Virus record (IMG/VR): IMGVR_UViG_3300044617_001027
Length of the DNA stretch: 64,000 nucleotides
Direction: 5' to 3' (one strand)
Source: an uncultured virus (IMG/VR IMGVR_UViG_3300044617_001027)
Taxonomy: Duplodnaviria > Heunggongvirae > Uroviricota > Caudoviricetes
Shown here piece after piece: positions 8,932 to 63,888 of this stretch (position 1 is the first letter of the stretch; each line of letters starts with the position of its first letter). Both the position numbers and the translations under genes were made by a program. The notes under the pieces were generated by a model. That model was not told the DNA's origin, made no database searches, and was given only the letters and a program-made list of their open reading frames with translations.

Positions 8932-8985
8932 TTCTTTTTATAATAAATATACTAAAAACTTAAAATTAATACAAAACAAGGAAAA

Positions 8986-9696
8986 CTAGTTCCTTCCGCC
9001 ACCACCTCCACCACCGCCAATCAAATTACCTAGTGCACTTATCGCACCTCCTGCAAGTGCTTGAGCGGCACCTTTTCCAATATTTATAGCTGCATCTCCT
9101 AATTGCTTTCCGAAATTAGCGCCTCCGCCATCTAATCCAGGTCCTTCAACATCAGGAAGTTTTACTTTACTACCTCTAACCATGGCATAATCATATACTA
9201 TTGTTCCTTCCATCAATACTAAATCATCACTAGACATGTCAAATTCTCCCCATTTAATAGAATCAAAAAATGCTCCTACTAATACGAAAGAATCCATGAC
9301 ATCTCCATGAGGTGATAATGATCTTAAATATAATGTTCTTTTATATTCATGTATAAAACCATCTTCTCCCGGAGTTAAAAGATTAAAAGATGTTCCCGTT
9401 GTGCCGGAATTGTGATGATAGTTATTAATGTAATCATGTAACATTTTGGCACCATTATCTTCAATTGGATCATAAAAACGTATTGTTATGGGCTGCCATC
9501 TTGATTTTCCTTTAACGTGAAATTCTGTATTTATGTAATCTACTGTGATATGATTATTCTCTAAAGTAGGTCTTTCTGCTGATTTTATGGCATACGTAGG
9601 AAAAAAAGGACCAAAAGGATCTGCCTGCATATATAACTCAAAGCGCATTTGCTGCTTTGGATTAAAATACTTAAAAGGTTTGTGTGTAAATGCCAT
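8986..9696 (-). CDS. Tail tube protein paralog 2 (gp19-like); start moved to MAFTHKPF
   Basis: Closely similar to 9751..10341 (FKYFNPKQQMR, VDYINTEF.VKGKSRWQ). The track start at 9723 lies inside a hairpin. Confidence 0.8.
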   Translation of the reverse strand: MAFTHKPFKYFNPKQQMRFELYMQADPFGPFFPTYAIKSAERPTLENNHITVDYINTEFHVKGKSRWQPITIRFYDPIEDNGAKMLHDYINNYHHNSGTTGTSFNLLTPGEDGFIHEYKRTLYLRSLSPHGDVMDSFVLVGAFFDSIKWGEFDMSSDDLVLMEGTIVYDYAMVRGSKVKLPDVEGPGLDGGGANFGKQLGDAAINIGKGAAQALAGGAISALGNLIGGGGGGGGRN

Positions 9697-9710
9697 GTGT
9701 ATTTTATAAG

Positions 9711-9738
9711 CACAGAGGTGCATTTATGCACCTCTGTG
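9711..9738. terminator. Perfect 13-bp inverted repeat between tube paralogs 1 and 2 (terminator, attenuator or stability hairpin)
   Basis: cacagaggtgcat-tt-atgcacctctgtg. Confidence 0.65.
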
Positions 9739-9750
9739 GTTTATTAATAA

Positions 9751-10341
9751 TTACCCTGCGTTAGGTCTTGTTACAGGTACCGATGCGTCTACGTCACGAA
9801 CCAGCACATTTGCATTCTGTACAGCTGGCATGGTTGCGTAATCATAAGTTATAGTTAAATCCAACATGTTTAAATCATCCGAAGATAAATCCATGTTGCC
9901 CCACTTAGCATCTGCAATAAAAGCTCCGTATAATAGGAACTGATCTACAGCATCTCCATGAGGACTAACCGCTTCAAATCTTAATGTTCTCTTATATTCC
10001 CAGATATATCCATCTTCTCCCGGGGTTACTAATCCTGTGCCAGGTTGGAGTAATCCGGAGTTATGGTGAAGTTTACTAATCCAGTCGTGCAGAAGTCTAG
10101 CACCGTTTACTTCAATTGGGTCATATAATGTTACAGAGATATCTTGCCACCTAGATTTACCTTTAACCTTAAATTCTGTATTGATATAATCTACAGTTAC
10201 TGGATTTTGATCTAGCGAGGGTCTATCCGCTGTTTTAACCATATAAGTAGGGATGTCCATTCCTCTATCATTGATATAGAGGACGTATCTCATCTGCTGC
10301 TTAGGGTTAAAATATTTAAATGGGGAGTTTATAAATGCCAT
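9751..10341 (-). CDS. Tail tube protein (gp19-like), probably the major one
   Basis: Directly after the sheath gene; motifs KGKSRWQDISVTLYDP and LYGAFIADAKWGNMD...LTITYDYA. Confidence 0.85.
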   Translation of the reverse strand: MAFINSPFKYFNPKQQMRYVLYINDRGMDIPTYMVKTADRPSLDQNPVTVDYINTEFKVKGKSRWQDISVTLYDPIEVNGARLLHDWISKLHHNSGLLQPGTGLVTPGEDGYIWEYKRTLRFEAVSPHGDAVDQFLLYGAFIADAKWGNMDLSSDDLNMLDLTITYDYATMPAVQNANVLVRDVDASVPVTRPNAG

Positions 10342-13104: not shown

Positions 13105-13641
13105 TTAATATTTGTTTAGTTCATCATACGCGTCATTAATTCCGGATCTATAATCAGTGGTAGTTAAGTTTGTTTTTCTACTTAAGTGTGCTTGCGCTAT
13201 GACTGATATATTATAACCAAATTCAGATTCTTCTCCTAAGACATGGGGTATATATGTTTCAGGATTTCTTCCAAACCATGCATTATCAGAGAATACATTG
13301 TTTAGTTCATAAAAATCCATATCAAAGAATACATAGTCGCCGGGTTCTATAACCAAGTCTCTCTCTAATAAATCATCTCTTAGAAAGTAAAATGTAGCTT
13401 CTCTTTCAAAATCTAATCCAAAGTCAGTGTCGATAGTTTCTTTGGTACCTCTTTTTATGATACAGTTTAGTCTAGTAGCATTATAGAATACTTTACTAGG
13501 TGCTTCCCTATATATGTTCTCTCTAGTATCTTCCCTAGATAATTTATAAAGTTCAACCTCTAAGGCCATCACTTTATTCACTCTTTCTCTGTTTATACTC
13601 CTAACTAAAGAAGCATCTCTACCACTTCCAAATAGTGCCAT
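13105..13641 (-). CDS. Neck / head-closure protein (gp14-like)
   Basis: Motifs ENIYREA and LVIEPGDYVFFDMDFYEL; synteny after the gp13-like gene. Confidence 0.6.
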   Translation of the reverse strand: MALFGSGRDASLVRSINRERVNKVMALEVELYKLSREDTRENIYREAPSKVFYNATRLNCIIKRGTKETIDTDFGLDFEREATFYFLRDDLLERDLVIEPGDYVFFDMDFYELNNVFSDNAWFGRNPETYIPHVLGEESEFGYNISVIAQAHLSRKTNLTTTDYRSGINDAYDELNKY

Positions 13642-14801
13642 TATCCTACGTATATTTTAAGTGGAATTACTGCTAAAAATTTTTCGTGAGCTTCGGATTC
13701 TGCCATCTTTCTTTCTAATTGAGATTGACGGCTAAATTGATCTAACTCTATCCTAAGAACATCTATTAATCTTTGTTTCTCCTCATTTACCGAATACATT
13801 AAATCTTCAGTATTTAAAACAATATCATCCTCTAGTCCGGGTAAAGTCTTGTACTTTCCTCTAACATAAGCAAGCATTTCTTTAGATAGGACAAGCGTAT
13901 ATTTTTTTATCCACTGTTTACCTATGTCATTGATACTAGAATAAGGTAGAGTGAAATAAGGAATAGTAGCATGGCTATTTATTTTACCTGTACCTCCTTT
14001 ATTCGCATTTTTGTATTCGGAATCTAAAGTGTATTCAAACCATATTCTATATTCTCTAACCGGTGTAGGGAATATTCTTATTCTATTATTAATTATCTCG
14101 AAGCCGTATGCAGATTTTCTTATTTGGTCATTAAATTCTATCGCCTGCATCCTAAGAATATCATGGTGCATAGGCATTAATAAGAAATTAACTCCGGGGC
14201 TAAAATTACCGAATCCAAATTGGTCAAGTAAGTTTTGACTACCTAATCCTGTTCCTACAAAGGGGTCAAAGTATTTTACAATAGCCGGCGGTGCATTGTG
14301 AAACATTTTTCTTATTACGAACTTGTCTGTAGCGGGATTTCCGGACTCTAAAGAAACTCTAGTGGGGTCTAGTAAGCTATAAACTTGTTTTCCTTCTTTT
14401 ACCAATATAGAGCCTGTATAAAATGTAGTTCTACCACCTACTCCAATTTCTGTGCCGTATTCCGCAGATATTTCTAATACGCCTGCTATTGAATTGGTAA
14501 CTAATTCTTTTTCTAATCTAAGGGAACCTGTATTGAATCCCATTAATCCTAGTATATTGTCTTTAGCAGAATGGGCATTAACTTGATTGCTATACTCGGA
14601 GATAGACTCTTCAAAAGCGGTATAGAAGTTTATATCTTGTAATTCCACGTCGCTAAGAGGATAACCTAATCTTCTAGCGCACCATACGGCTACTTTAGGG
14701 GCATCCTTTTGAAAATTTCTATCTTTGTCAAATATTCCGAAAGGCGTAGATCCAGATACTGCGCTACCACTTCCAGGCCAAATAGGTATGTGAACTGCCA
14801 T
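13641..14801 (-). CDS. Neck / head-tail adaptor protein (gp13-like)
   Basis: Motifs WCARRLGYPLSDVEL and WIKKYTLVLSKEMLAYVRGKY, with C-terminal PLKIYVG. Confidence 0.75.
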   Translation of the reverse strand: MAVHIPIWPGSGSAVSGSTPFGIFDKDRNFQKDAPKVAVWCARRLGYPLSDVELQDINFYTAFEESISEYSNQVNAHSAKDNILGLMGFNTGSLRLEKELVTNSIAGVLEISAEYGTEIGVGGRTTFYTGSILVKEGKQVYSLLDPTRVSLESGNPATDKFVIRKMFHNAPPAIVKYFDPFVGTGLGSQNLLDQFGFGNFSPGVNFLLMPMHHDILRMQAIEFNDQIRKSAYGFEIINNRIRIFPTPVREYRIWFEYTLDSEYKNANKGGTGKINSHATIPYFTLPYSSINDIGKQWIKKYTLVLSKEMLAYVRGKYKTLPGLEDDIVLNTEDLMYSVNEEKQRLIDVLRIELDQFSRQSQLERKMAESEAHEKFLAVIPLKIYVG

Positions 14802-14848: not shown

Positions 14849-17131
14849 TTAATATACTTGTCTTATAAAGGATACGAGAACATATCTAACTCCGGAAGTT
14901 ACAGGTCTTGCACCATGCCTATGTGTTATCTGTCCCGGATGTATTGTTAACTCACCTACTTCTCCTTTAACTAATTTCTTTTGTTTTGAAAACCATGTAC
15001 CTCCTCCCTCGTATTCATCATTCAAAGTAAGTACGGTAGAGAATGCAGAATCATCATGGTGTAGGGATAAGTGCCCTTGATTTTCCGGTGTGTATTTTAT
15101 AATAAAGTTTTCGGAGCTAAATTTCTTCCATTTATCTCCAGTAAGTACAAAATTAGATTTTACGAGAGGATATATGTAAGTATTTAAAAACATGTCATAA
15201 GCATCATGTAATTGAAATTCATTGATAAGCATGTCATGAGTTGGATAATAATAATGTCTATCTTTTGTCCATTTTCCACATTCTTCTGCTAATCTTATAA
15301 CTTCATTGCAAAATTCTTTTTTAAATGCATGTAAATGTAAGACATCAGGTATAGGTTCATCTACAATTAAATCATATTCTTTATTCTTTAATGCAGGATT
15401 GATATACATGGATGACCATTTATCTACATCTTTTGTTAGATAGATGTTAGATGCAAATGAGTTACTTGATGTTTTACTTGTTTTTGCATTACTTGTTTGA
15501 CTTACTATAGATTCTTTTAAACTATATGCAGTAATGTCTTTCCATATAAATGCTAAATCTAATCTTTCATTGTTGTTTGAGTATGTTGATGCTATGAAGT
15601 CATCTACTGGTAAGATGTATTTTTCAAAGTTCTGTTCTATTATTCTTTCTATGCCTACTTTTGATAACATGTAGGCATGAGATAACCATGAGTATCCTGG
15701 ATGTATATATAATTCATTTTGTATGTCTATGTCCCCGCCGATTTTTTGTCTTCCTAAATATAATAGTCCCCAATCGTATAATGCTATTTCTTTCGCGGGG
15801 AACTCTCCATTTACTTTAAAATCATCCTCTAAAATTAAAATAGAATCATAATTTTTCTTTTTAGCATCTTTCCATACAGATAAATGAGATAAAGCACATC
15901 CAATCTCTCCAGGCAATATATCTCGGTTATAATATGAATTACTATGATTATCTATTTTCCAACTATTGTATAAAGACCAATCAAAATCTACTTTAACATT
16001 TCTACCATCTATAGCTTTAAATAAATGAAACTCACCCGGTATGATACCTAGTTTATTAAATTCGGCGGTGTATCTATTAATAGCTTCATCAGATACATCA
16101 AAAGTAATCACATAGACAGCATCTATCTTTAATCTATTTTCCATGACATTAATATTTATAAATTCTTTAGCAATCATTTTAGGATTAAAAGCATCATATA
16201 CATTTAAATTTGATGTAGATGAATTAGTAAGCATTTTAAAATTATCATTAGACAATACACATGATAACCATGAATCAAAATCAATATAATTAAATACAGT
16301 TTCTTTTAATCCTGCTCTTAATCTTGTTATAGGAATCAATCCTAACATTTGCATTTCAACAGCAGATACACAAAATGTCTCATCATAATTAGAAGGATAT
16401 AACCAATACTTTTTATTACTCGCAAAAGTCATTAAAGCATCTTTACTCATAGATCCATGATAGTACACATTTTTATACGTGCTTTTAACATAAGAAAAAT
16501 GCTTCTCATAGAATTTTTCTCCGTATTTTGGCGTTACTATGTATAAAGATGATTGAGGTCTATGATATAAAATCTGTCTCCAATGTATCAATATTTCTCT
16601 TAATCCTCTTTCTGCATGAGATATATAAATGTAAGAATCATCAATAATTAATTTATCTGACTTTTCTATATGTTTTACTGCATTGTATAACATGATAGAA
16701 GGAACATTCGGAAAATGTTTATCAAATTCTCCCTTATGGTACTTAGATACACAAATAACACTTTCAAATTTAAGATGATTAAATACTTTATCCTGTAAAT
16801 TATCAATCTCCTCCCCCTTATAGAAATTGTAGAAGAAAGGGTCTGTGTTGTGTATCCAAAAATAAGATTTATCGTAACTATTCTCTGATATTAAATCTAT
16901 GTAATGAGTGTAATTTAGAGCAATTAGGATATCAGACCCTACATTATAATCCTTCGTGTAAATAACGCCATTTAAAGCGTTCTCCTGCACTATCTCTCCC
17001 GTGATATATACTTCGTGACCTAAGGATGCAAAAGCCTCTGCAAGATGACGTAAGGCCCATTCAGTGCCAGCGAAGTTATCTCCGCTGGCATGAAATTGAG
17101 AGTAGTATCCAACATAAAACTTAATTATCAT
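14849..17131 (-). CDS. Three-domain enzyme: GT-B (GT4-like) glycosyltransferase + GT25 (COLGALT-like) + PLOD-like 2OG-Fe(II) lysyl hydroxylase
   Basis: GT-B motifs AGTEW and YPSNYDETFCVSAVE. GT25 motifs AIDG, GEIGCALSH, ILEDD, LLYLGR and LPVDDF. Hydroxylase motifs HHDDS, YEGGGT and HPGQITHRHGARPVTSGVRYVLVSF. Confidence 0.85.
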   Translation of the reverse strand: MIIKFYVGYYSQFHASGDNFAGTEWALRHLAEAFASLGHEVYITGEIVQENALNGVIYTKDYNVGSDILIALNYTHYIDLISENSYDKSYFWIHNTDPFFYNFYKGEEIDNLQDKVFNHLKFESVICVSKYHKGEFDKHFPNVPSIMLYNAVKHIEKSDKLIIDDSYIYISHAERGLREILIHWRQILYHRPQSSLYIVTPKYGEKFYEKHFSYVKSTYKNVYYHGSMSKDALMTFASNKKYWLYPSNYDETFCVSAVEMQMLGLIPITRLRAGLKETVFNYIDFDSWLSCVLSNDNFKMLTNSSTSNLNVYDAFNPKMIAKEFININVMENRLKIDAVYVITFDVSDEAINRYTAEFNKLGIIPGEFHLFKAIDGRNVKVDFDWSLYNSWKIDNHSNSYYNRDILPGEIGCALSHLSVWKDAKKKNYDSILILEDDFKVNGEFPAKEIALYDWGLLYLGRQKIGGDIDIQNELYIHPGYSWLSHAYMLSKVGIERIIEQNFEKYILPVDDFIASTYSNNNERLDLAFIWKDITAYSLKESIVSQTSNAKTSKTSSNSFASNIYLTKDVDKWSSMYINPALKNKEYDLIVDEPIPDVLHLHAFKKEFCNEVIRLAEECGKWTKDRHYYYPTHDMLINEFQLHDAYDMFLNTYIYPLVKSNFVLTGDKWKKFSSENFIIKYTPENQGHLSLHHDDSAFSTVLTLNDEYEGGGTWFSKQKKLVKGEVGELTIHPGQITHRHGARPVTSGVRYVLVSFIRQVY

Positions 17132-17134
17132 AAA

Positions 17135-17800
17135 TTACAGTGAGTTGGGGTATAAATACTTGAATATATCGTCTAATGCTTCGTGTCTGTGATTAGTGGA
17201 AAGCCTTACGCAATTAACATATTTACTCTGGTCAACTATAGGTACTAGCTTAATTGCAGATTGCTCTTTATTTCTTAAGTCTATCTGATTCTCATCCCCT
17301 GTAAATATCATAATCGTATTTTTACCAAGTCGGCTTATACACATAGAAAGCTGTTCTTTTGTCAAGTTCTGGAATTCATCTATAATACAAATAGCGTCGT
17401 CAAAAGTTCTACCTCTAAAGTGAGCTAAAGAAACGAGTTCAACAGATTTGTCACTATATAATCTTTCTACAGCTGATTGCTTTGCGTATGCTTTAGATAT
17501 GTTGTCTTTTATAGGAACTATCCAAGGTTCTAATTTTTCCTCAAATGTTCCGGGTAAAAATCCCATTTCTTCGGTAGCAACCATCGGTCTAGTAATGACT
17601 ATCTTATTTATTTCTCTTCTAAAAAACTTGTCGAGAGCTATCTGAGTTGCGAGTAATGTTTTGCCACTCCCGGGTTTACCTAAGACAAAATTAACAGGGT
17701 GTAATAATATTTTGTCTTTCGCTTCTTTTTGGTCGTTTGATAATTGGATATCAAATTTTACCGGATTCTTCGGCAACCTCTTTTCTGTGTTTTCCGCCAT
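17135..17800 (-). CDS. phoH: PhoH-family ATPase
   Basis: Motifs GKPGSGKT, ITRPMV, MGFLPG, FRGRTF, IIDEFQN, GDENQID and HRH. Confidence 0.93.
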   Translation of the reverse strand: MAENTEKRLPKNPVKFDIQLSNDQKEAKDKILLHPVNFVLGKPGSGKTLLATQIALDKFFRREINKIVITRPMVATEEMGFLPGTFEEKLEPWIVPIKDNISKAYAKQSAVERLYSDKSVELVSLAHFRGRTFDDAICIIDEFQNLTKEQLSMCISRLGKNTIMIFTGDENQIDLRNKEQSAIKLVPIVDQSKYVNCVRLSTNHRHEALDDIFKYLYPNSL

Positions 17801-18147: not shown

Positions 18148-18179
18148 AAAAAAGGCGGGGCTTTTTAGAAGCCCCGCCT
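18148..18179 (-). terminator. Intrinsic terminator after the major capsid gene
   Basis: Minus strand reads AGGCGGGGCTT-CTAAA-AAGCCCCGCCT-TTTTT, 30 nt after the capsid stop codon. Confidence 0.9.
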
Positions 18180-27624: not shown

Positions 27625-28243
27625 CTATATTTAAATCTTCTTCTTTTATATTATATGTTCCCATGATATCATCTCTTAAATTACTAAAATCAGATCTAAT
27701 CTTATCTAAAAATGATTCTTTATTTTCAATTGACCATTTTTCAATAGATCCGTCTGCATGAGAATATCCCATGTTATCAAATGATCTTAATAAAATTTCT
27801 ACTTCTTTAGATGCCTCTTTTAAAAATGATACCGCATTCTCTTTCTTTTTATCATGAACATAAGTATCAAATTTTCCATTTAGCTTCAAGTCTGCTTCAT
27901 ATTTTATTGTACATTCTAAACATCTTCCTGTCTTTTTTCCCAATTTATAATCTGCTTGACCGAAAAGTTTGCCGTCACATGTATCTAAACAATTAGGAAA
28001 TTTACTTATGCTATCTAATTCTTTTAGTATTTCTCTAACTCCCTTAGATCTTTTTACTTTATACCCATCTCTTTGTTCCCATTCGGTTACATGACCCATA
28101 GGTGAAACATCTTCCCATATATCTCCTACTTTTCTTATTTCGGAATCTTCCTTCTTTCTATATCCTATAGTTGTTCTGTTCTGGGTTTTGTGTTCTCCTA
28201 TTAGAAGTTTTTTTACCGCTTCTACATTTCTTAATTTACTCAT
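27611..28243 (-). CDS. Hypothetical protein with two CxxxC/CxxC pairs
   Basis: CLDTC...RCLEC; directly upstream of the terminase. Confidence 0.6.
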
Positions 28244-31200
28244 AGTTTTCTCCTTTTTCTAATTTTGTAACTCTTTTAGTTAAATCCTTTATTAAATCAT
28301 ATAATTCCTGTATAGCTTTTAGATTATAAACCGAAAGTTTATCATAGTTAACAGCTAGAACTCCTTTTTGTCCTTCTATCTTAAACTCTTTTAATAAACC
28401 TGTTTTAAGTCCGTCGGTTATATCTTGAGCTATAATACCTACTTCTTTACCCTCTAAGTTAGATGGAATCCTATGAGATGAAGATGTTTTATTTACTTCT
28501 AAAATAACACCTTTCATTTCATCTGTATTCCAATTATAATTAACAGGTTTTATCGTATATAGTTGCTCTAATACAGAATCTATTTCCTCTATATCTTTTT
28601 TTAGTCTCCTATCTGAGAATGCTGGAAATGGACCTCCTGATGAGCTTCCTTTTTGCCCTTTCTCTCCTTTGAATCCGGTTGGACCAGTTGGACCGGGAGG
28701 GCCCGGAGGGCCGGGGTCTCCTGGCAATCCTTGTTCTCCTGCTCCCGTAGGACCTATTGAACCTTGCGGACCGGGTCCGCCGGAAGGGCCGGGAGGGCCG
28801 GGTCCACCGGGAGGGCCAGTAGGGCCAGGGGTACCTGAACCGGTTGGACCGGTAAATCCTTGAGGACCAGTAGGGCCAGGTCCTCCGGGAGTACCTGTGC
28901 CAGTAGGGCCGGTAAATCCTTGAGGTCCGGGTCCACCACTAGGTCCAGTAAATCCTTGAGGTCCGGGTCCACCACTAGGTCCAGTAAATCCTTGAGGTCC
29001 GGGTCCACCACTAGGTCCAGTAAATCCTTGAGGTCCGGGTTCTCCGGTAAATCCTTGAGGACCTATACCTGCTAATCCAGTAAATCCTTGAAATCCTTGG
29101 TTGCCTTGCGGGCCAGCCACAGAGCTTGGATTACCTGTAGGTCCTTGGTTGCCTTGCGAGCCCTGAAAACCTTGAGGACCGGGAGCTCCCGGAGGGCTTA
29201 TTATACTAGGTCCTTGTCTTCCTTGAAAACCCTGTGTACCTACTGTGCCTTGTAGTCCTGTTGGACCTTGGTTTCCTTGAGGTCCCGGTCCGCCGGGTTC
29301 TCCTGTAGGGCCTTGAAGTCCTACTCCTGACAAACCTGTAGGGCCTTGATTACCTTGTGTACCTGCTGTTCCTTGAAAACCTGTTGGTCCTTGATTACCT
29401 TGTGGTCCTTGCCTTCCTTGAAAACCCTGTGTACCTACTGTGCCTTGTAGTCCTGTTGGACCTTGGTTTCCTTGAGGTCCTATATCCCCTTTCTGACCTT
29501 TGTCGCCTGTTAAACCAGGTTGGCCTTTAAATCCTATACTTCCTTTAGTCCCTTTATCGCCTTCACTTCCCTTATCTCCTTTATATCCTTTATAGCCAAT
29601 TTCCCCTTTACTTCCTTTAAAATCTCCTTTAATTCCTTTATCTCCTTTAACTCCTTTATCTCCCTTACTCCCCGTAGGTCCAGGAGGACCTATTTTAGAA
29701 CTTGGTATAGGAGATGGACTAGGAGCAAAAATTCCTATATTTTCAGGAGATGACATATTATGTACTAACACATCTTCTACAAAAAAATTTTCATTTTTCT
29801 CTACGCTTAAATTATATACAGTACTAGATGTTGCGTATGAATAAATATTAGATATCTTTTCATAAGATAGTGTTTTGTAATTAAAGAGTTCATCGTTTAC
29901 AGATAAATCTTTAGCTTTTTTCCAATATTTATCATACCATCCTTTAACGTAAAATGGATGTTCTTCAGTACATTGTATATTATTATTTATAACATATAAA
30001 TAATTTGATTTTCCTACATGTTTATATATTATAGTATCTTCTTGTAGTGTTTTATTATCTATGTTATAAGACATGATTGATTGACCTACTAAAGCTTCCT
30101 CTATTGTTATGTAAACATTATTCAATGTTAATATTTTAGTAGACGGAATAAAACAAGTTGGGCCTACTGATCCTGAAAATCCTTTGTCTCCTTTGTCTCC
30201 TATTTCTCCTTTATCTCCTACACTGCCCTTCTGACCTATAGTTCCTTGTAGACCCGTTATGCCTTGATTACCCTGAGGTCCTTGATTACCCTGAAATCCG
30301 GTAAAACCTTGTAGTCCTTGATTACCCTGATTACCTTGCGGTCCTTGATTGCCTTGGAAACCTTGTGTACCTACTATTCCTTGAAAACCTTGTGTACCTA
30401 CTGTACCTTGTATGCCCTGTATTCCCTGATTACCTTGCGGTCCTTGGTTGCCCTGCGGCCCTTCTACAGAACTTGGATTACCGGTAAGACCTTGGTTTCC
30501 TTGTAGTCCTTGATTGCCTTGTGTGCCAATTGTTCCTTGAATACCTGTCGGACCTTGATTTCCTTGTGAGCCTTGATTACCCTGCGCTCCGGTAGTACCC
30601 TGTAGTCCAGTAGGGCCTTGATTACCTTGCGGTCCTTGATTGCCTTGGAAACCTTGAGTTCCTACTGTTCCTTGAATACCTGTCGGACCTTGATTTCCCT
30701 GTAAGCCTATAGTTCCTTGTAAACCTGTTGGTCCTTGATTGCCTTGTGTGCCAATTATTCCTTGAATACCTGTCGGACCTTGATTTCCCTGTGAGCCTAT
30801 AGTTCCTTGTAAACCTATTGGTCCTTGATTGCCTTGAGAGCCTTTGAAGTTTCCTTTTTCTCCTTTCGGCCCTTTTTCACCACCGCCAGCTATAGAAACA
30901 AATCCTTTAAAACATTCTCCAAAAGTTATTTCTATAGTATTTTCGTCTATGGCAGTATAATTTTCGGGGATAACGGAGTTCCCGTCATAGGAGTATATAG
31001 TAAATACAGGGTATTGTATTCCTGTACCGTGGTTAATTGTAATAACATTACAACTATTTAAAGAACCAGTAAATACGGTATCTCCTAATTCACCTTTAGA
31101 CCCACTTATTCCCTTAAGCCCTTCCTCCCCCTTCTGTCCTTTGCTTCCTTTAAAATTTCCTTTTTCTCCTTTGTTACCCTTTCCGGAGGAGCTAGCTATT

Positions 31201-33215
31201 AGAGCTTGAAATGCGGGGCTACTATTGAACGTGTTTATTAAAAGCTGTTCGTCAATAGTAACATCAACATTAACTTTAACTCCATAGATGGTTGTAGAAA
31301 AATTAGCAGAAACTCCGTTAGCATTTAAATATTCTATTTCAAAAATATATTCAGTATCTATTTTTGCTATTGGTAAATTATCCAATGGAATATCAATACA
31401 AAATTCATTAGGAGTTCCTCCGTCTGATGCACTTGGAAATATATCAATGTCAGAAACATTCCATTGCCCTGCATTTATAATAAAATTAGGCTTTATATTA
31501 TCTTCAGATGTGGCTTTAAATGTAAAAGTCTTCTTTATTTCAGACTTATTATTACCGCCTATTAAAGATCCTAAGAAAGTACCAAAGGAGTTCTTTTCTG
31601 ATGTGCCAGATGGGGATGATGCATTTACCTTATTTATAGATAATGGAGATTTTTCTACATCCGGTCCTTGAATGTATATGTCAAGTTGTGGAGTTTTTCC
31701 ATTAGCGTCTTTTTCGGAAAATGCAGATATTTGTACAGTATATTCAGTGTTAGGAACTGATTTGGATAAGAAAGAATCTTTTACTGTTATATTTACTACT
31801 TCATTTTCTTGCTTATTGTGCTGTACGTCTAAGGCGTTTATTATATTTCCGCTGTTGGCAGATGTAGTTACTCCCCCAGCACCTAAGTTTTGATAAGATG
31901 AATTTTGCTTTCTAAACTTATTAATATCAAAATAGCTAGATATGTCAGAGCTGTCCTTTATATTTCCTACTTTCTTATTCTCTATACCCCCATTAGCAGA
32001 AAAATCATAAGAAGTAGGATCTGTTAATTTACTTGTTTTGGGTATTTTAAATTCTCCTAAACTAACTGGACTTCCTACCCCTCCGGCGGCTTTTGCCGAA
32101 ACTTTTACTCTATCAACATCTCCGGAAACAGGTTTAGCATTTTTAACACATATTTTAGCGTATCCTGTTTTCTTTTGTCCATCGCTTGTATTTGGACTTT
32201 TAAAATAGTCTATACATATATTTGATGAATCGAATTTTGTAATATAAATTTCAGATGGTTCTCTTTTTTTATTTACATAGGACTCTCTATAGAAAAACTG
32301 TTTATCTACCTTTATTTGAGTACTACTAATTACCTCTACGATGGTTGCTGTGTAAGAAGGAACTGTTGGGGAATAACCAGAAGGTAAATCTCCGGGTAAA
32401 TACTTGGAAATGTTAGGAGTTAAAGAGATAGTTCCTTTCTCCATTTCTTTTTTAAATGGAGCGCCGGTATTAGCTACTATTGTGCTAAGGTTATTTGCGT
32501 CAGTTGTTATAGAAAAGTTACCGGAATTAGCTAAACTTCCCGATGTATTTACGGTAGGTGAGGATTCAATAGGTACTCCTTCAAATAATGTAGGTATATT
32601 AGAGGAATAGTTGGAAGAATATTGAGAAGGGGGTGCGGAGGATACATAAGATAAACTAACTGCATGACAACTTCCTGTAGCTCTGCTTCCGGAAAAGTTT
32701 TGAAAAGCTCTTGTTTCAGGAGTTAAATCTACTTTGGGAGGTATAGTATATTTTATATCTCCTACTGTTTTTTTCTTAATATTACACAACAATTTACCTA
32801 CCCATATAATATTAGGTGACGATAAATTTGTTACTTTTCTATTTCTTAGTACATCGAAATTAGCTGTACCTGCTATATAAATTTCACAATTTCCTATGGG
32901 TACCTTATCTCCTATGGTAACAGTTACAATAGCGGATCCATTAGAATTTGCAACATTTTTTATTTCGTGTGGAATTAAATTGCCCTCCGAATCATAGACT
33001 TCAACAAAAACTTGAGTTCCTTTAACTAAGTTTTGCGTTGGGTTGATTCCTATTTCATTAGACCCTTTTAAAAATTCCGCAGGTAGAGATAAGCCAAAAT
33101 AATTAGAACTTAAAGCATCACCATCAAAAAGAGTAAATTCATTTATATAGCTCTTTATCCCAGAGCTAGTTAATTTTTTATTATATTCAGATGATGATGT
33201 TACTCCAGAAGCCAT
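28236..33215 (-). CDS. Giant collagen-like fibre with an internal Hint domain and a C-terminal S74 autocleaving chaperone
   Basis: Long Gly-X-Y tracts; Hint CFIPSTKI...[22 protein letters not shown]74 [13 protein letters not shown]...VGIIAQDI...VNYDKL...AIQEL. Confidence 0.88.
29757..30155 (-). other. Hint (intein-like) domain, 133 aa, without a homing endonuclease
   Basis: Starts at Cys (CFIPST), has block B CTEEHPFY and ends His-Asn. The +1 residue is Met. Confidence 0.85.
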
Positions 33216-49007: not shown

Positions 49008-51260
49008 TTAATTATTCTTTCGGGAGAATGGATCGTAAGGAGGATTACCTCTACTACCTCCTGTACCACTACTGCCACCTGTACTACGGCCATTCGTTCG
49101 CATGAATGGAATGGGTCCACCACCGCCCGTGCTACCACCACCTGTGCCACCACCACCTGTATTATCACCGCCTGTATTATTACCAATATTTTGATAACTT
49201 AGAAAGTCTATGGTATTTCCCGGAATGCCTCGTGTTAAATCTATGGAACTAGTATCTTGTCCTCCACTACCTCCCCCTCCGCCAGGAGTTTCTGTTGTAG
49301 GGCAGTTAAAATTATTTAAATCTATGAAAACATTAACTAAAGGAGGAGCTTGATTTCTATCTATAAGAGTAGAATTACCTCTATATTGGTAACTCTTATT
49401 TCCGCTATTTAAAAATAAAGTGCAGATTTGATTAATACTACCTATACTTAGAGAAGTGTATATTTTATCATTTTCGTCAGTACAAGATACAAGTTCATAT
49501 ATTACTATTTTAGTAGTATCTCCGCCGCCGCCTGAAGGGCCTCCACCTCCAATGCCCGGACAATTTGTAACTCCTTTTATTTCTAGTAAATCAGTAAGTA
49601 TTGCTATAGCTAGTGTGGTGGGATAGAAATTTGGTTCTAATTCATCCCAATAATAAGAAAGACGTTTTGTAACGCTATAATAAATTTGATTAGCTTTAGG
49701 TTGTGTGGCGATATACCCAGGTATATCATTTGAATTACATGGAATCATTCTCCAGTATTTATTACCTGCTCCTGTACTAGTACCTCCTGTTCCTCCACCT
49801 GTATCTGTTCCTCCTCCGGTACTAGGACCTGTTCCTCCACCTGTATCTGTTCCTCCTCCGGTACCAGGACCTGTTCCTCCACCTGTATCTGTTCCTCCAC
49901 CTGTATTTCCTCCTCCGGTACCAGGACCTGTTCCTCCACCTGTATTATCTTTAGGGCATTCAGGACAAAGAGAATTAGTTCCAGATGCTCCTGTAGGTCC
50001 AGCAGGTCCTTGCGGTCCTATGGGACCAAGTCCGCCAAGTTGACCATTTTGTCCCGGCTGACCATTCTGTCCGGGTAATCCGTTAGTTCCATTCTGTCCA
50101 TTAACTCCGGGTTGTCCATTAGCTCCAGCAGGTCCATTAGCTCCATCTTTACCATCCTTGCCATCTTTACCATCTTTACCGGCGGGTCCAGCAGGTCCTT
50201 GAGGTCCAGGTAAAGGTATTGAGCCTCCTCCTACTACATTCAATCCATCTTTACCGTCTTTACCAGGTCTTCCTTCAGAGCCACTAACGATAATAACAAA
50301 AGGTTCTGCCGGGATGTTATTAATAATTGTCGAAGGTATGTTATTAATAATTGGAACCATAGGGTCAATAATGTTTCTTACTTTTTTCCTAACAGCAGGT
50401 GTCCAAGATGAAGATAAGTCAAGACAATTCCCATTATTATTTGTGTTTATAAAATAGTAAGTGTATCCTTCCAAGGGTCTTGCTCCAACTTCAGCAATTT
50501 TAACAAATGTACCTAATGGGTAAGTAGCTAATTCGGAGAAATCTACTCGTTCAATAGATACTACGTCGTTATATGTTTTATTTCTTTCAAACATCATAAC
50601 TTCTAATGTCTCATTGTTAGGAATAAGACATACCGAGATATCTGTTAATGCTTGATTATTACCTCCAATAAAATAATTAAAATTTGCATCAATTATTTTA
50701 GAAAGTATAAAATCAGAAACGATAACTTTTTCAGGTCTTATAAAATAATACCCAGGATCTACAGATAAGGTAGTCCCTTGTAATTTGTAACTTATTGGAA
50801 CATATTTTATTCCTTTAAGATTTACTTTTAATTTTGGTTTATTGGCTTTTTTTATATCTTCAGTGGAATATCTATTTTTATTTTGTCCCTCTATTTCAGG
50901 CAATCTTTCATTTATTGTTCCGAAGATGACTTTTTCTACATTCCCTTCGTATCTTCTAACAATTTTATAATTTACATAATCATCAGTTTCACTAGATGTG
51001 TTAATTTCATTTTTTGGGACGGGAAGAGATATTTCTAATTTATTATTTACATCTAATGCATCTCCAATTTTTATTAATTCTTTAGACTCTTCCGTAGTAA
51101 ATCTTCCGGACATGTATTTTCCATACTCGTCTACATGATATTGACCTTTATATATGTCTCCATTTAAATAAGTAAAATCTCCAGTAGATAAGTTAGGACC
51201 TGATCTTTTATTGTTTGGATCTGATAATCTATGTATATTTATGATATTATTCTCTTCCAC
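49008..51260 (-). CDS. Structural protein with a collagen-like tract and Gly/Thr-rich repeats
   Basis: GPQGPAGPAGKDGKDG...GQNGQPG tract and GGGTDTGGGTGP repeats. Confidence 0.75.
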   Translation of the reverse strand: MEENNIINIHRLSDPNNKRSGPNLSTGDFTYLNGDIYKGQYHVDEYGKYMSGRFTTEESKELIKIGDALDVNNKLEISLPVPKNEINTSSETDDYVNYKIVRRYEGNVEKVIFGTINERLPEIEGQNKNRYSTEDIKKANKPKLKVNLKGIKYVPISYKLQGTTLSVDPGYYFIRPEKVIVSDFILSKIIDANFNYFIGGNNQALTDISVCLIPNNETLEVMMFERNKTYNDVVSIERVDFSELATYPLGTFVKIAEVGARPLEGYTYYFINTNNNGNCLDLSSSWTPAVRKKVRNIIDPMVPIINNIPSTIINNIPAEPFVIIVSGSEGRPGKDGKDGLNVVGGGSIPLPGPQGPAGPAGKDGKDGKDGKDGANGPAGANGQPGVNGQNGTNGLPGQNGQPGQNGQLGGLGPIGPQGPAGPTGASGTNSLCPECPKDNTGGGTGPGTGGGNTGGGTDTGGGTGPGTGGGTDTGGGTGPSTGGGTDTGGGTGGTSTGAGNKYWRMIPCNSNDIPGYIATQPKANQIYYSVTKRLSYYWDELEPNFYPTTLAIAILTDLLEIKGVTNCPGIGGGGPSGGGGDTTKIVIYELVSCTDENDKIYTSLSIGSINQICTLFLNSGNKSYQYRGNSTLIDRNQAPPLVNVFIDLNNFNCPTTETPGGGGGSGGQDTSSIDLTRGIPGNTIDFLSYQNIGNNTGGDNTGGGGTGGGSTGGGGPIPFMRTNGRSTGGSSGTGGSRGNPPYDPFSRKNN
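49788..49943. repeat. Degenerate tandem repeats encoding GGGT(D/G)T/GPGT
   Basis: Repeated cctgttcctccacctgtatctgttcctcc units. Confidence 0.8.
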
Positions 51261-62751: not shown

Positions 62752-63888
62752 ATGCTAATTTACAGGCCTACTATTATTTCTGGTTCGGGATATTACTCCG
62801 GGTCTTTTGATGGAGACGGGTCTAGGTTATATAACATACCATCATCTTCCTACGCTATAACTGCCTCCTATGCTTTAAATGGAGGAACCGGAGGTGGTGA
62901 AAAAGGTGATAAAGGAGAAATGGGAGATTCTGTTTTTACCTCCTCTTTACAAGGAGTATTAGTAACAGTTAATCACAATTTAGATTTAGAATATCCTGTT
63001 TACAATATTTATGATAATTTAGGAAAAGAGGTAATACCTAAGGAATTTACCATAATTAATCCAAATTCCGTACAAGTAAATTTCGGCATACCATTTACCG
63101 GCTCTATAAGTATTTCCGCTGGTCAACAAGGTTTTAAAGGACAAAAAGGGAGTAAAGGAGAAGTTGGTGTCAAGGGAAATAAAGGAGAGTTAGGAGAAGC
63201 TGTTTATAGTTCATCTATTCAAGGCACTGTTATTTCTGTGGCTCATAATTTAGATATTCAATATCCTGTTTTTACTATTTATGATAATTTAGGAGATAAT
63301 ATAATACCTAAATCTTTTTCTGTTATAAATGATAATACCGTTGAAGTTGATTTCGGTATTGGATTTACTGGCTCTATAAGCATTGCAAGCGGTATAAAAG
63401 GGCAAAAAGGAGAACCTTACAATGGATCTGTAATATATGAGAGCGGTAGTAAAATAGGTATAGGCATTCCAAATCCTACATTTCAATTACAATTATCTAC
63501 AAATAGTGCAGGTAAACCAACTGGAGGATCTTGGTCGGATTCTTCGGATATAAGGTTAAAGACAGATATAAAAGACATAGATAATCCACTACATATATTA
63601 AAAAAAATAAGAGGAGTTACTTTTAGATGGAAAGATGGTTTACGAGATGATTGTAACTCCGGAGGTTTTATAGCAGATGAATTAGAGAATGTATTCCCCT
63701 CTTGGGTCACAATACAAGAGTCTTCTGAGAAAGAAAAACTGTATATAGAAGACAATAAAGTAAAAACTATCTCGCTACCCTTTTATTTTGATGCTATTAT
63801 AGTTGAATCAATAAAAAAACAGCAAGAAGAAATAGAAATGCTAAAAACTAGTATTTTAGAATTAGAACTACTTATTAAAAATACATAA
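62752..63888 (+). CDS. Short fibre protein with Gly-X-Lys collagen segments, two tandem beta domains and an S74 chaperone
   Basis: GEKGDKGEMG and GFKGQKGSKGEVGVKGNKGELG; two copies of HNLD..YPV..IYD; SDIRLKTDIKDI...GFIADEL. Confidence 0.8.
   Translation: MLIYRPTIISGSGYYSGSFDGDGSRLYNIPSSSYAITASYALNGGTGGGEKGDKGEMGDSVFTSSLQGVLVTVNHNLDLEYPVYNIYDNLGKEVIPKEFTIINPNSVQVNFGIPFTGSISISAGQQGFKGQKGSKGEVGVKGNKGELGEAVYSSSIQGTVISVAHNLDIQYPVFTIYDNLGDNIIPKSFSVINDNTVEVDFGIGFTGSISIASGIKGQKGEPYNGSVIYESGSKIGIGIPNPTFQLQLSTNSAGKPTGGSWSDSSDIRLKTDIKDIDNPLHILKKIRGVTFRWKDGLRDDCNSGGFIADELENVFPSWVTIQESSEKEKLYIEDNKVKTISLPFYFDAIIVESIKKQQEEIEMLKTSILELELLIKNT

What the first reader, a model, noticed from the sequence alone, without database searches (positions are those of the whole stretch)
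14849..17131. Candidate phage collagen-modification system: lysyl hydroxylase and two glycosyltransferases in one protein
Seen: the C-terminal ~190 aa read WSSMYINP...IVDEPIPDV...FCNEVI..AE.CGKW...PTHD...FIIKYTPENQGHLSLHHDDS...YEGGGT...HPGQITHRHGARPVTSGVRYVLVSF. The middle domain has GEIGCALSH..VW, ILEDDF, W.LLYLGR, YSW..HAY.LS..G and LPVDDF. The N-terminus looks like a GT-B glycosyltransferase. Established: as I recall them, these patterns follow the catalytic domain of animal procollagen lysyl hydroxylases (PLOD/LH3; HxD...H triad and 2OG-binding Arg) and the GT25 domain of collagen galactosyltransferase COLGALT1. Those enzymes act in sequence on Gly-X-Lys to give hydroxylysine and then Gal-hydroxylysine; mimivirus L230 is a viral precedent. 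Inference: this phage hydroxylates and glycosylates its own collagen fibres, with the GT-B domain possibly adding a second sugar. The gene is in the late head/neck operon with a TATTTAT motif upstream. I do not know of this being described for a bacteriophage.
Basis: partly seen in the sequence, partly recalled or inferred. Interest (0 to 1): 0.95.

Follow-up and report, generated by a model that had tools for sequence, protein, structure and literature searches.

The report
Phage collagen lysine hydroxylase-glycosyltransferase fusion
A freshwater T4-like bacteriophage encodes one 760-residue protein that joins two sugar-adding enzymes to a close relative of the animal and mimivirus collagen lysine hydroxylase, and comparison with other phages suggests that it decorates the phage's own collagen-like fibres.

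Summary
ORF 14849-17131 (minus strand, 760 aa) has three domains: a GT4-like GT-B glycosyltransferase, a GT25 domain and a lysyl-hydroxylase (LH) domain.

- **LH domain:** the only 2OG oxygenases it matches in the PDB are human LH3 (profile E 9e-40) and mimivirus L230 (2e-38; model TM 0.84). It keeps L230's Fe and 2OG residues.
- **GT25 domain:** it is far closer to human COLGALT1 (5.5e-31) than to a bacterial GT25 (3e-6). It keeps the Mn site, the uridine-binding motif and the catalytic base.
- **Substrate evidence is comparative only.** The window encodes collagen-like fibres with Lys at the Y position of Gly-X-Y. In 31 of 31 distant relatives with enough flank, a giant Lys-rich collagen gene lies directly upstream of the enzyme gene. 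Within one portal lineage, enzyme and collagen are present together or absent together.
- **Caveats:** in this phage the nearest collagen gene is 11 kb away. Bacterial homologues are not next to collagen genes. One acceptor residue of COLGALT1 is not kept. Nothing has been measured biochemically.

My literature searches found no description of this in phages. This scan has already noted the same kind of enzyme on other DNA. I class it as a new variant of a known kind, with confidence about 0.7.

The parts
14849..17131 (-). 760-aa three-domain enzyme gene (GT4-like GT-B + GT25 + lysyl-hydroxylase-like 2OG oxygenase); stop codon at 14849-14851
   Evidence: ORF; domains
16142..17131 (-). Residues 1-330: GT-B fold, GT4-like glycosyltransferase domain with invariant E251...E259 (EX7E spacing)
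   Evidence: Best Foldseek GT-B hits are alpha-1,2-glucosyltransferase tll1591 (7fga_B, E 6e-12, TMt 0.63), glycogen synthase, BshA and PimA. The profile hits the GT4 enzyme 7qsg at 1.7e-4. Pfam PF00534 scores 23.3 bits, below its cut-off of 26.4.
15482..16129 (-). Residues 335-550: GT25 (GT-A) domain, COLGALT1 catalytic-lobe-like, with G408/G411/C412, E435-D436-D437 and D510-D511
   Evidence: PF01755 E 8.6e-18; COLGALT1 profile E 5.5e-31; residue alignment; roles of the human residues from passages
14852..15430 (-). Residues 568-760: collagen lysyl-hydroxylase-like 2OG/Fe(II) oxygenase domain with Y680, H691, D693, H739 and R749
   Evidence: LH3 E 1.8e-23 and L230 2.2e-20. Against L230 chain 6ax6_B the model gives TMt 0.84, rmsd 1.7 A and 30% identity over 197 columns.
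28236..33215 (-). 1659-aa collagen-like fibre protein, the likely main substrate. It has 197 Gly-X-Y triplets, with Lys at Y in 28 and at X in 0, and a C-terminal Peptidase_S74 chaperone domain.
   Evidence: (PF01391 E 9e-72; PF13884)
62752..63888 (+). 378-aa tail-fibre-like protein with short collagen segments (13 triplets, Lys at Y in 7) and a Peptidase_S74 domain; likely second substrate
49008..51260 (-). 750-aa protein with 39 Gly-X-Y triplets whose six lysines sit at X (GKD repeats), not at Y. It is collagen-like but not an expected lysyl-hydroxylase substrate.
17135..17800 (-). PhoH-like gene immediately upstream. Its stop lies 3 nt before the enzyme's ATG, so the two are probably co-transcribed.
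13641..14801 (-). Head-tail adaptor/neck-like gene immediately downstream
   Evidence: phrog_211, E 1e-9

Best explanation
The gene encodes a single-chain collagen-lysine modification enzyme that acts in the infected cell on the phage's own collagen-like fibre proteins before they trimerise. The main candidate substrates are the 1659-aa and 378-aa proteins.

Step 1: the C-terminal domain uses Fe(II), 2-oxoglutarate and O2 to hydroxylate lysines at the Y position of Gly-X-Lys. The homology and catalytic residues are shown; the substrate is inferred.

Step 2: the GT25 domain, an inverting GT-A with an E-D-D Mn2+ site and an Asp general base as in COLGALT1, transfers a hexose from a UDP-sugar to the new hydroxyl. 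The motifs are shown; the identity of the sugar is not known.

Step 3: the N-terminal GT4-like GT-B domain, which belongs to a retaining family, adds a second sugar. This would give a disaccharide analogous to Glc-Gal-Hyl. It is the weakest step, and I put it at about 0.4.

The likely benefit is stabilisation, hydration or protection of a hydroxyproline-free triple helix, or altered adhesion of the fibre. That benefit is inferred.
For: **Domain identity**
- By phmmer against 177,635 PDB sequences, the only oxygenases matched are LH3 (1.8e-23) and L230 (2.2e-20).
- A family profile gives LH3 9.2e-40, L230 2e-38 and COLGALT1 5.5e-31. A bacterial GT25 (8xlz) scores only 2.9e-6.
- The AlphaFold model has mean pLDDT 88.8. 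Foldseek against L230 gives TMt 0.84 and rmsd 1.7 A.

**Catalytic residues**
- Y680, H691, D693, H739 and R749 match L230 Y814, H825, D827, H877 and R887 (paper passage). All five are invariant or at least 90% conserved in 25 and in 84 homologues.
- G408, G411, C412, E435-D436-D437 and D510 align without gaps to human COLGALT1 G408, G411, C412, the E435-D436-D437 Mn site and the catalytic base D522.

**Substrate link**
- The window holds collagen-like fibres with Lys at Y in 28 and 7 triplets and at X in none.
- Among 37 distant loci (21 clusters at 90% identity), all 31 with at least 2.9 kb of upstream sequence have a same-strand collagen ORF of 701-2238 aa. It ends 40-1944 nt before the enzyme gene.
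- In 17 cluster representatives, 2223 of 5621 triplets have Lys at Y and 27 have Lys at X.
- In the portal-defined lineage, 21 loci have at least 9.4 kb downstream. Of these, 19 have both genes, 2 have neither and none is discordant.
- Whole records agree. Two genomes that are 98-100% complete lack both genes. Four that are 91-100% complete have both.
- Nine of 9 enzyme-bearing phage records hold PF01391 collagen.
- Cyanophages S-CAM9, S-PRM1 and S-8S55 and Roseobacter phage CRP-6 carry GT25+GT_PLOD+LH genes just downstream of collagen-bearing tail-fibre genes.

**Second sugar**
- Among 76 LH-family representatives, 14 carry a GT4-type domain and 23 carry a PLOD-type GT domain. None carries both.
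Against: - No biochemical or proteomic measurement exists.
- In this window the nearest collagen gene starts 11.1 kb from the enzyme gene. None of the 23 close relatives L001-L023 has a large collagen ORF within 10 kb.
- None of 9 bacterial-genome loci has a collagen ORF within 10 kb. However, 5 of 5 of those genomes that I tested have collagen elsewhere, against 4 of 14 control genomes.
- COLGALT1's acceptor residues W495 and K470 align to L483 and Q462 and are not kept.
- Some family members are fused to Peptidase_C39 or TPR domains, which suggests other substrates for those members.
- Lys at Y is favoured in collagen helices in general (my recollection), so the positional bias is not specific.
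- The loci counted are not phylogenetically independent.
- The window protein's GT4 and 2OG Pfam hits fall below the gathering cut-offs.
Confidence: 0.7

Rival explanations
1. The hydroxylase and GT25 domains do act on collagen lysines, but the GT4 domain does not extend the Hyl-linked sugar. Instead it glycosylates another acceptor, such as Thr or Ser of the fibre or another virion protein, or it serves as a scaffold. This is a variant of the core reading.
For: Two-domain GT25+LH forms of about 431 aa are common, so a single sugar suffices in many phages. GT4+LH forms without GT25 also exist (P0121, P0130, P0155), so GT4 can partner with LH on its own. The Y position of the window's large fibre holds Thr in 33 triplets.
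Against: GT4 and the PLOD-type GT domain are mutually exclusive among the 76 representatives scanned (14 and 23, none with both). In LH3 the PLOD-type GT is the retaining glucosyltransferase that extends Gal-Hyl (paper passage). This pattern fits replacement of one second-step enzyme by another. The EX7E glutamates are invariant in 84 homologues, so the domain is probably catalytic.
Confidence: 0.25
2. The enzyme hydroxylates and glycosylates a non-collagen protein or peptide, such as another virion protein or a host protein.
For: The gene lies between phoH and a neck gene, not beside a collagen gene. Bacterial homologues are not beside collagen genes (0 of 9). Some LH-family members are fused to Peptidase_C39 or TPR domains. 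COLGALT1's W495 is not conserved.
Against: Collagen synteny is perfect in 31 of 31 informative distant loci. Enzyme and collagen are present or absent together within one portal lineage. The nearest solved relatives are all collagen enzymes. Every enzyme-bearing record or genome I examined holds collagen, 14 of 14.
Confidence: 0.1
3. The protein remodels the host cell envelope (LPS or capsule), as the database names of GT25 and GT4 suggest, and the oxygenase modifies a sugar or lipid.
For: Source annotations read 'GR25 family glycosyltransferase involved in LPS biosynthesis' or 'cell wall biosynthesis'. Pfam names PF01755 an LPS biosynthesis family.
Against: The GT25 domain is about 25 orders of magnitude closer to COLGALT1 than to the solved bacterial GT25. 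It is permanently fused to a lysyl-hydroxylase-type domain. It tracks collagen genes. Those names are automatic family labels, not tests.
Confidence: 0.04
4. The protein hypermodifies phage DNA by base hydroxylation followed by glycosylation, as in the hmC-glucose or base-J type systems.
For: Phages are known to pair oxygenases with glycosyltransferases for DNA modification (my own knowledge). The second PHROG hit carries the label 'DNA endonuclease' (phrog_2297, 1.7e-13).
Against: No TET/JBP, AlkB or other nucleic-acid oxygenase appears among the PDB matches, even with a profile at E 0.01 or below. The fold matches L230 at TM 0.84. The gene lies among structural genes.
Confidence: 0.01

Closest known systems
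Acanthamoeba polyphaga mimivirus L230 (collagen lysyl hydroxylase / hydroxylysine glucosyltransferase; LH domain PDB 6ax6, 9nev)
   Same: Both are virus-encoded enzymes for a virus-encoded collagen. The LH domains share about 30% identity and superpose at TM 0.84 and rmsd 1.7 A. The Fe triad and the Tyr/Arg 2OG binders match with the same spacings.
   Different: L230 is from a giant virus of amoebae. According to the review passage and the listings, its sugar-adding part is a PLOD-type GT-A domain that puts glucose directly on Hyl. The phage protein instead carries a GT25 domain and a GT4 GT-B domain, and it has no PF25342 match.
Human LH3/PLOD3 with GLT25D1/COLGALT1 (Lys to Hyl to Gal-Hyl to Glc-Gal-Hyl)
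   Same: The LH domain matches LH3 at profile E 9e-40 and the GT25 domain matches the catalytic C-lobe of COLGALT1 at 5.5e-31. The E-D-D Mn site, the GxxGC uridine motif and the Asp base are conserved. Both combine one hydroxylase with one inverting and one retaining-family transferase.
   Different: The animal system is two proteins that form a complex in the ER. COLGALT1 has an extra non-catalytic N-lobe, and LH3 has GT-A and accessory domains. Here everything is in one 760-aa chain, with a non-homologous GT-B in place of LH3's GT-A. COLGALT1's W495 and K470 are not conserved. The enzyme would act in the cytoplasm of a bacterium.
Cyanophage S-CAM9 gp218 / S-PRM1 gp162 / S-8S55 and Roseobacter phage CRP-6 gp58 (annotated 'hypothetical' or '2OG-Fe(II) oxygenase')
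   Same: These are phage proteins with GT25 and an LH-like domain. They lie just downstream of tail-fibre genes with Gly-X-Lys collagen segments: 22-26 Lys at Y among 55-99 triplets.
   Different: Their second transferase is a PLOD-type GT domain (PF25342; E 7.5e-47 and 4.5e-28) placed between GT25 and LH, not an N-terminal GT4. They share only about 28% identity with the window protein.
Bacterial GT25 LPS glycosyltransferases (Pfam PF01755; solved example 8xlz/8xc8)
   Same: Same Pfam family and the same GT-A fold.
   Different: The similarity is much weaker (profile E 2.9e-6 against 5.5e-31 for COLGALT1). They are not fused to an oxygenase, and their acceptor is a glycan rather than a protein side chain (from the family description).
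Modification of bacterial collagen-like proteins (Bacillus BclA glycosylation, B. anthracis prolyl 4-hydroxylase)
   Same: A prokaryotic-world collagen-like protein is modified after translation (review passages).
   Different: The chemistry and the enzymes differ: glycans on BclA and prolyl hydroxylation, with no hydroxylysine. The review also states that most prokaryotic collagens are unmodified.

Membership tests
Collagen lysyl hydroxylase (LH/PLOD, L230 LH domain) | Fe(II) facial triad His-x-Asp...His | tested here: met
   H691, D693 and H739 align to L230 H825, D827 and H877. They are invariant in 84 homologues.
Collagen lysyl hydroxylase (LH/PLOD, L230 LH domain) | 2OG C-5 carboxylate binders Tyr and Arg | tested here: met
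   Y680 lies 11 residues before H691 and R749 lies 10 residues after H739. These are the same spacings as L230 Y814 and R887. Y680 is invariant and R749 at least 90% conserved.
Collagen lysyl hydroxylase (LH/PLOD, L230 LH domain) | Closer in sequence and fold to LHs than to prolyl, nucleic-acid or other 2OG oxygenases | tested here: met
   LH3 and L230 are the only oxygenases matched in the PDB, both by single sequence (E up to 1) and by profile (E up to 0.01). Foldseek TMt to L230 is 0.84.
Collagen lysyl hydroxylase (LH/PLOD, L230 LH domain) | 5-hydroxylation of Lys in X-Lys-Gly of unfolded collagen chains | not testable with these tools
   This needs an enzyme assay or mass spectrometry.
Collagen lysyl hydroxylase (LH/PLOD, L230 LH domain) | Homodimer through the LH domain, required for activity | not tested
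   I ran no complex prediction.
LH3-type multifunctional PLOD (GT-A + accessory + LH) | N-terminal PLOD-type GT domain (PF25342) | tested here: not met
   The window protein has no PF25342 match. Cyanophage and CRP-6 relatives do have one. The window protein is therefore not an LH3 orthologue in architecture.
GT25 / collagen galactosyltransferase (COLGALT1 catalytic lobe) | Pfam PF01755 above the gathering score | tested here: met
   65.4 bits against a cut-off of 24, E 8.6e-18.
GT25 / collagen galactosyltransferase (COLGALT1 catalytic lobe) | Glu-Asp-Asp Mn2+/UDP motif and the GxxGC uridine-binding helix | tested here: met
   E435-D436-D437 and G408/G411/C412 align without gaps to the same-numbered human residues (roles). 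E435 is invariant and D437 at least 90% conserved.
GT25 / collagen galactosyltransferase (COLGALT1 catalytic lobe) | Catalytic base Asp of the 'DE' motif (human D522-E523) | tested here: met
   D510-D511 in LPVDDF aligns to human LPVDEF. D510 is at least 90% conserved, and the family consensus is PVDEF.
GT25 / collagen galactosyltransferase (COLGALT1 catalytic lobe) | Acceptor-cleft residues K470 and the Y494-W495 'YW' motif that hold Hyl-Gly | tested here: not met
   These align to Q462 and W482-L483, and the family consensus there is Y-N. A one-residue shift cannot be excluded from sequence alone.
GT25 / collagen galactosyltransferase (COLGALT1 catalytic lobe) | Non-catalytic N-lobe (GT1/NGT) of COLGALT1 | tested here: not met
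   The COLGALT1 match covers only chain residues 311-533. The phage N-terminus is a GT-B domain.
GT25 / collagen galactosyltransferase (COLGALT1 catalytic lobe) | UDP-Gal-specific transfer to hydroxylysine | not testable with these tools
   Donor and acceptor specificity need assays.
GT4 (GT-B, retaining glycosyltransferases) | Two-Rossmann GT-B fold | tested here: met
   Foldseek hits to tll1591, glycogen synthase, BshA, PimA, AviGT4 and a B. anthracis GT4 enzyme, E 6e-12 to 4e-9.
GT4 (GT-B, retaining glycosyltransferases) | EX7E motif (I recall this as the family signature) | tested here: met
   E251 and E259 are eight residues apart and invariant in 84 sequences.
GT4 (GT-B, retaining glycosyltransferases) | Pfam GT4/GT1 models above the gathering score | tested here: not met
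   In the window protein PF00534 scores 23.3 against 26.4 and PF13439 scores 16.9 against 28.5. Homologues do pass.
Virus-encoded collagen modification system (enzyme plus substrate) | Gly-X-Lys collagen encoded by the same genome | tested here: met
   The window holds fibres with 28 and 7 Y-position Lys. Nine of 9 enzyme-bearing phage records hold PF01391.
Virus-encoded collagen modification system (enzyme plus substrate) | Enzyme gene adjacent to the collagen gene | tested here: not met
   In this window the gap is 11.1 kb, and the close relatives L001-L023 have no nearby collagen gene. The feature is met in 31 of 31 informative distant loci.

The most novel reading that the evidence does not exclude
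Bacteriophages of lakes and oceans widely carry out the whole 'animal' collagen lysine pathway (Lys to hydroxylysine to glycosyl-hydroxylysine to diglycosyl-hydroxylysine) on their own fibres. They have assembled it into a single polypeptide at least twice, by different routes: GT4+GT25+LH here, and GT25+PLOD-GT+LH in cyanophages and a roseophage. If so, glyco-hydroxylysine collagen chemistry is not an invention of animals and giant viruses. It would be a common trait of the prokaryotic virosphere, and its enzymes are the nearest microbial relatives of LH3 and COLGALT1.
Probability: 0.35. Interest if true: 0.85.

Novelty: new variant of a known kind. Interest (0 to 1): 0.78.

Why it matters
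Hydroxylysine and its Glc-Gal glycan are regarded as hallmarks of animal collagen, and mimivirus is the one measured viral exception. The review passages say that most prokaryotic collagens are unmodified.

If this phage enzyme works as predicted, it would place the chemistry in bacterial viruses. It would explain how Hyp-free phage collagen fibres of up to 2,200 residues are stabilised or protected. It would also supply compact single-chain, cytoplasm-compatible enzymes for making hydroxylated and glycosylated recombinant collagen in bacteria.

The family is large. There were 408 matching stretches in IMG/VR and 2,771 cluster representatives with an LH-like domain at E 1e-3 or below. Cultured cyanophages and a roseophage carry related forms, so the prediction can be tested directly at the bench.

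Tried and rejected
**Searches that gave nothing**
- Whole-genome access: no assembly is held for this window, so genome-wide statements rest on the 64-kb window and on related records.
- Megablast of 8 kb against 50,697 phage records gave no match.
- Notes of this scan, searched by place and by sequence, gave nothing.
- NCBIfam gave only a far-sub-threshold generic dioxygenase hit (22.6 bits against a cut-off of 143).

**Promoter idea**
- TATTTATA occurs 21 times against 18.5 expected.
- Sigma-70-like sites number 30 against 30.7 expected.
- I rejected both as evidence of a promoter.

**RNA evidence**
- One freshwater metatranscriptome gave a single 203-nt contig inside the gene, plus several contigs over the capsid gene.
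- DNA carry-over cannot be excluded, and the uncovered parts say nothing.
- Run X19 is probably DNA. I make no claim of expression.

**Tree of 137 LH domains**
- This was a FastTree with no outgroup.
- Architectures cluster more than shuffled labels do: GT4 needs 9 changes against 21.8, and GT_PLOD needs 5 against 19.3.
- The architecture groups are not single clades, and without a root the tree gives no donor or direction of transfer. I use it only to say that the window's LH domain sits among three-domain and two-domain phage-type forms.

**Not done or not usable**
- I considered a complex prediction (LH dimer, or enzyme with fibre) and did not run it.
- In the collagen search, an E cut-off of 1e-10 wrongly emptied record G011. 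I repeated the search at 1e-6.
Full report
**Observation.** One search finds one ATG-started ORF at exactly 14849..17131 on the minus strand (760 aa).

The window is the structural module of a distant T4-like myovirus. It encodes terminase, portal, prohead protease, a gp23-like capsid protein, sheath, three tube paralogues and baseplate wedge proteins. The nearest capsid proteins are those of Microcystis phage Mel-JY01 (59%) and Flavobacterium phage vB_FspM_immuto (54%).

The gene starts 3 nt after the stop of a PhoH-like gene and is followed by a neck/adaptor-like gene. Near-identical DNA occurs in lake and freshwater metagenomes dated 2016-2024. One 2,253-nt contig from a 2016 run covers two thirds of the gene without a single difference.

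**What the three domains are.** Pfam gives GT25 (PF01755) at residues 339-445, with 65.4 bits against a cut-off of 24. It also gives sub-threshold GT1/GT4 and 2OG-oxygenase hits.

Against the sequences of all PDB chains, residues 571-756 match human LH3/PLOD3 (E 1.8e-23) and the mimivirus L230 lysyl hydroxylase (2.2e-20). Residues 367-547 match human COLGALT1 (3.6e-11).

A profile of 25 homologues sharpens this:
- LH3 scores 9.2e-40 and L230 2e-38.
- COLGALT1 scores 5.5e-31 and mimivirus R655 3.3e-8.
- A bacterial GT25 scores 2.9e-6.
- A few GT4/GT5 enzymes score 1.7e-4 to 7e-3.
- No prolyl hydroxylase, AlkB, TET/JBP or other oxygenase appears at E 0.01 or below.

An AlphaFold model built on 84 homologues has mean pLDDT 88.8. 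Its only weak segment is residues 555-558, between GT25 and LH. By Foldseek, the C-terminal domain superposes on L230 (6ax6_B) at TMt 0.84, rmsd 1.7 A and 30% identity over 197 columns. The N-terminal 330 residues match GT-B enzymes of retaining families: alpha-1,2-glucosyltransferase tll1591, glycogen synthase, BshA, PimA and AviGT4.

**Catalytic residues.**
- *LH domain.* Passages of Guo et al. 2018 (PMC5802723) name the L230 Fe triad (H825, D827, H877) and the 2OG binders (Y814, R887). The phage protein has Y680, H691, D693, H739 and R749 with matching spacings. These residues are invariant or at least 90% conserved in 25 and in 84 homologues.
- *GT25 domain, conserved.* Passages of two COLGALT1 structure papers (PMC12003778; PMC12987934) name the unusual E435-D436-D437 Mn site, the uridine contacts G408, G411 and C412, and the catalytic base D522 with E523. 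In the gap-free part of the alignment the phage residues are G408, G411, C412 and E435-D436-D437; the numbers coincide by chance. D510-D511 aligns to D522-E523.
- *GT25 domain, not conserved.* The acceptor-cleft residues K470 and W495 align to Q462 and L483, with W482 in the place of Y494. Acceptor recognition may therefore differ in detail.
- *GT-B domain.* E251 and E259 are invariant. I recall this spacing as the EX7E signature of GT4 enzymes.

**The family.** The protein search found 244 homologues of comparable length. Most are 745-850 aa with the same three domains, and all come from metagenomes.

IMG/VR holds 408 stretches that encode a relative. The LH domain alone finds 2,771 cluster representatives at E 1e-3 or below and 83 at 1e-30 or below.

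I scanned 76 of those representatives, chosen as the best hits of at least 280 aa that fitted the size limit of one call; 62 others were left out. Of these 76:
- 42 carry GT25 and 23 carry the PLOD-type GT domain PF25342.
- 47 carry at least one of the two.
- 14 carry GT4-type domains, and GT4 never occurs together with PF25342.

Among 50,697 deposited phage records, 15 match and none covers 80% of the query. The best are cyanophages S-CAM9, S-PRM1 and S-8S53/55/56 and Roseobacter phage CRP-6. The S-CAM9 and CRP-6 proteins are GT25 + PLOD-GT + LH.

**What it acts on.** The window encodes three collagen-like proteins.
- The 1659-aa protein (28236-33215) has 197 Gly-X-Y triplets, with Lys at Y in 28 and at X in none. 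It ends in a Peptidase_S74 self-cleaving chaperone domain typical of trimeric fibres.
- The 378-aa tail-fibre-like protein (62752-63888) has 13 triplets, 7 with Lys at Y.
- The 750-aa protein has its lysines at X (GKD repeats) and is not an expected substrate.

The strongest evidence comes from relatives.

*Synteny in distant relatives.* Among 37 loci with enzymes 32-42% identical to the window's (21 clusters at 90% identity), all 31 with at least 2.9 kb of upstream sequence have a same-strand collagen ORF of 701-2238 aa. It ends 40-1944 nt before the enzyme gene. A further locus has a truncated collagen ORF. The other five have less than 1.8 kb of upstream sequence. In 17 cluster representatives, 2223 of 5621 triplets have Lys at Y and 27 have Lys at X. 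These phages are of a different type, with the gene order terminase, portal, small gene, collagen, enzyme, virion proteins.

*Presence and absence within one lineage.* I used the portal of that type as a lineage marker and kept 80 loci, of which 21 have at least 9.4 kb downstream. Nineteen of the 21 have both collagen and enzyme, two have neither, and none is discordant. Whole-record searches agree. Five enzyme-less records, two of them 98-100% complete, have no PF01391 match and no enzyme. Four records that are 91-100% complete have both, which also serves as the positive control.

*Other enzyme-bearing records.* Five further enzyme-bearing records, including an 82%-complete 142.6-kb relative of the window phage, all hold collagen.

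*Cultured phages.* In the cyanophages and in CRP-6, the enzyme gene follows tail-fibre genes that contain 55-99 triplets with 22-26 Lys at Y.

**Evidence against, and limits.**
- In this phage the enzyme gene is 11.1 kb from the nearest collagen gene. None of its 23 close relatives has a large collagen ORF within 10 kb.
- The nine loci from bacterial genomes or MAGs have no collagen ORF within 10 kb. The five genomes I tested all have collagen elsewhere, against 4 of 14 control genomes.
- Many of the counted loci are near-copies of one another.
- Lys at Y is generally favourable in collagen (recalled).
- A few LH-family members are fused to Peptidase_C39 or TPR domains.
- Nothing has been measured.

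**Mechanism proposed.** The LH domain hydroxylates Y-position lysines of nascent fibre chains. The GT25 domain adds a hexose to the hydroxyl by an inverting mechanism. The GT4 domain probably adds a second sugar.

The last step is inferred from the retaining family of its structural relatives. It also rests on the mutual exclusivity of GT4 with the PLOD-type GT, which in LH3 performs the retaining glucosylation of Gal-Hyl (passage). The identities of the sugars are unknown.

**Novelty.** Seven full-text searches found no paper that describes a phage lysyl hydroxylase or hydroxylysine glycosylation in phage fibres (and 48 for the COLGALT1 papers).
- Iyer et al. 2010 (PMC2938197, passages) predicted that other bacterial dioxygenase families modify collagen-like and tail-collar proteins.
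- A 2022 review (PMC8968730, passages) credits such chemistry among viruses to mimivirus only.
- Luther et al. 2011 was seen only as a citation there.
- The papers on mimivirus R699 and on giant-virus glycans were seen only as listings and abstracts.
- I did not open any supplements.

This scan's own notes already describe the same kind of enzyme on other genomes. Those notes are not independent evidence.

**Transcription.** The TATTTAT motif is at chance frequency. A strong terminator-like hairpin follows the capsid gene (18153-18179), so the gene need not share the capsid transcript.

Noticed in passing
window 29757-30155 (-), residues 1021-1153 of the 1659-aa collagen protein: A non-collagen insert of about 133 aa with Hint/intein-like similarity interrupts the Gly-X-Y repeats. 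Pfam gives Intein_splicing at 33.3 bits (below the cut-off of 35.8) and a weak PT-HINT hit. The insert begins with Cys (CFIPSTKIL) and ends with VLVHN, but it is followed by Met rather than Cys, Ser or Thr. It could be a mini-intein or an intein-like self-cleaving domain inside a fibre gene.
   Followed up: partly
window 18153-18179 (-): A strong terminator-like hairpin lies right after the major capsid gene. It has an 11-bp stem with 8 G-C pairs followed by a T-run. It lies upstream of the small ORF, phoH and the enzyme gene.
   Followed up: no
L035 9450-10004 and 12328-12927; L061 6761-7926: In relatives, the enzyme gene is flanked by further small genes. There is a DUF6445 protein (PHROG label 'minor coat protein') between the collagen and enzyme genes, and stand-alone PF13640-type 2OG oxygenases beside it, two in tandem in the cyanophages. 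One representative (P0140) is a DUF6445+LH fusion. These may be further fibre-modifying enzymes, for instance acting on proline.
   Followed up: partly
P0144 and P0132 (LH-family representatives): LH-like domains are found fused to a Peptidase_C39 domain (607 aa) and to TPR repeats (570 aa). Some members of the family may therefore act on peptides other than collagen.
   Followed up: no
window 49008-51260 (-): This 750-aa collagen-like protein has GKD repeats that put Lys at the X position and none at Y, unlike the other two fibres.
   Followed up: partly
window 8188-10341 (-): Three consecutive paralogous tail-tube genes (247, 245 and 196 aa) all match phrog_4542.
   Followed up: no
window 55219-57237 (-), residues about 490-545: A Pro/Gly-rich low-complexity linker in a 672-aa ORF reads as Gly-X-Y on the opposite strand. 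It is an antisense artefact and not a collagen gene.
   Followed up: yes
L091, L140 and records G002, G004: Phages of the same portal lineage that lack the enzyme also lack any collagen gene. Something else must follow the portal gene in them, and I did not look at what replaces the fibre.
   Followed up: partly
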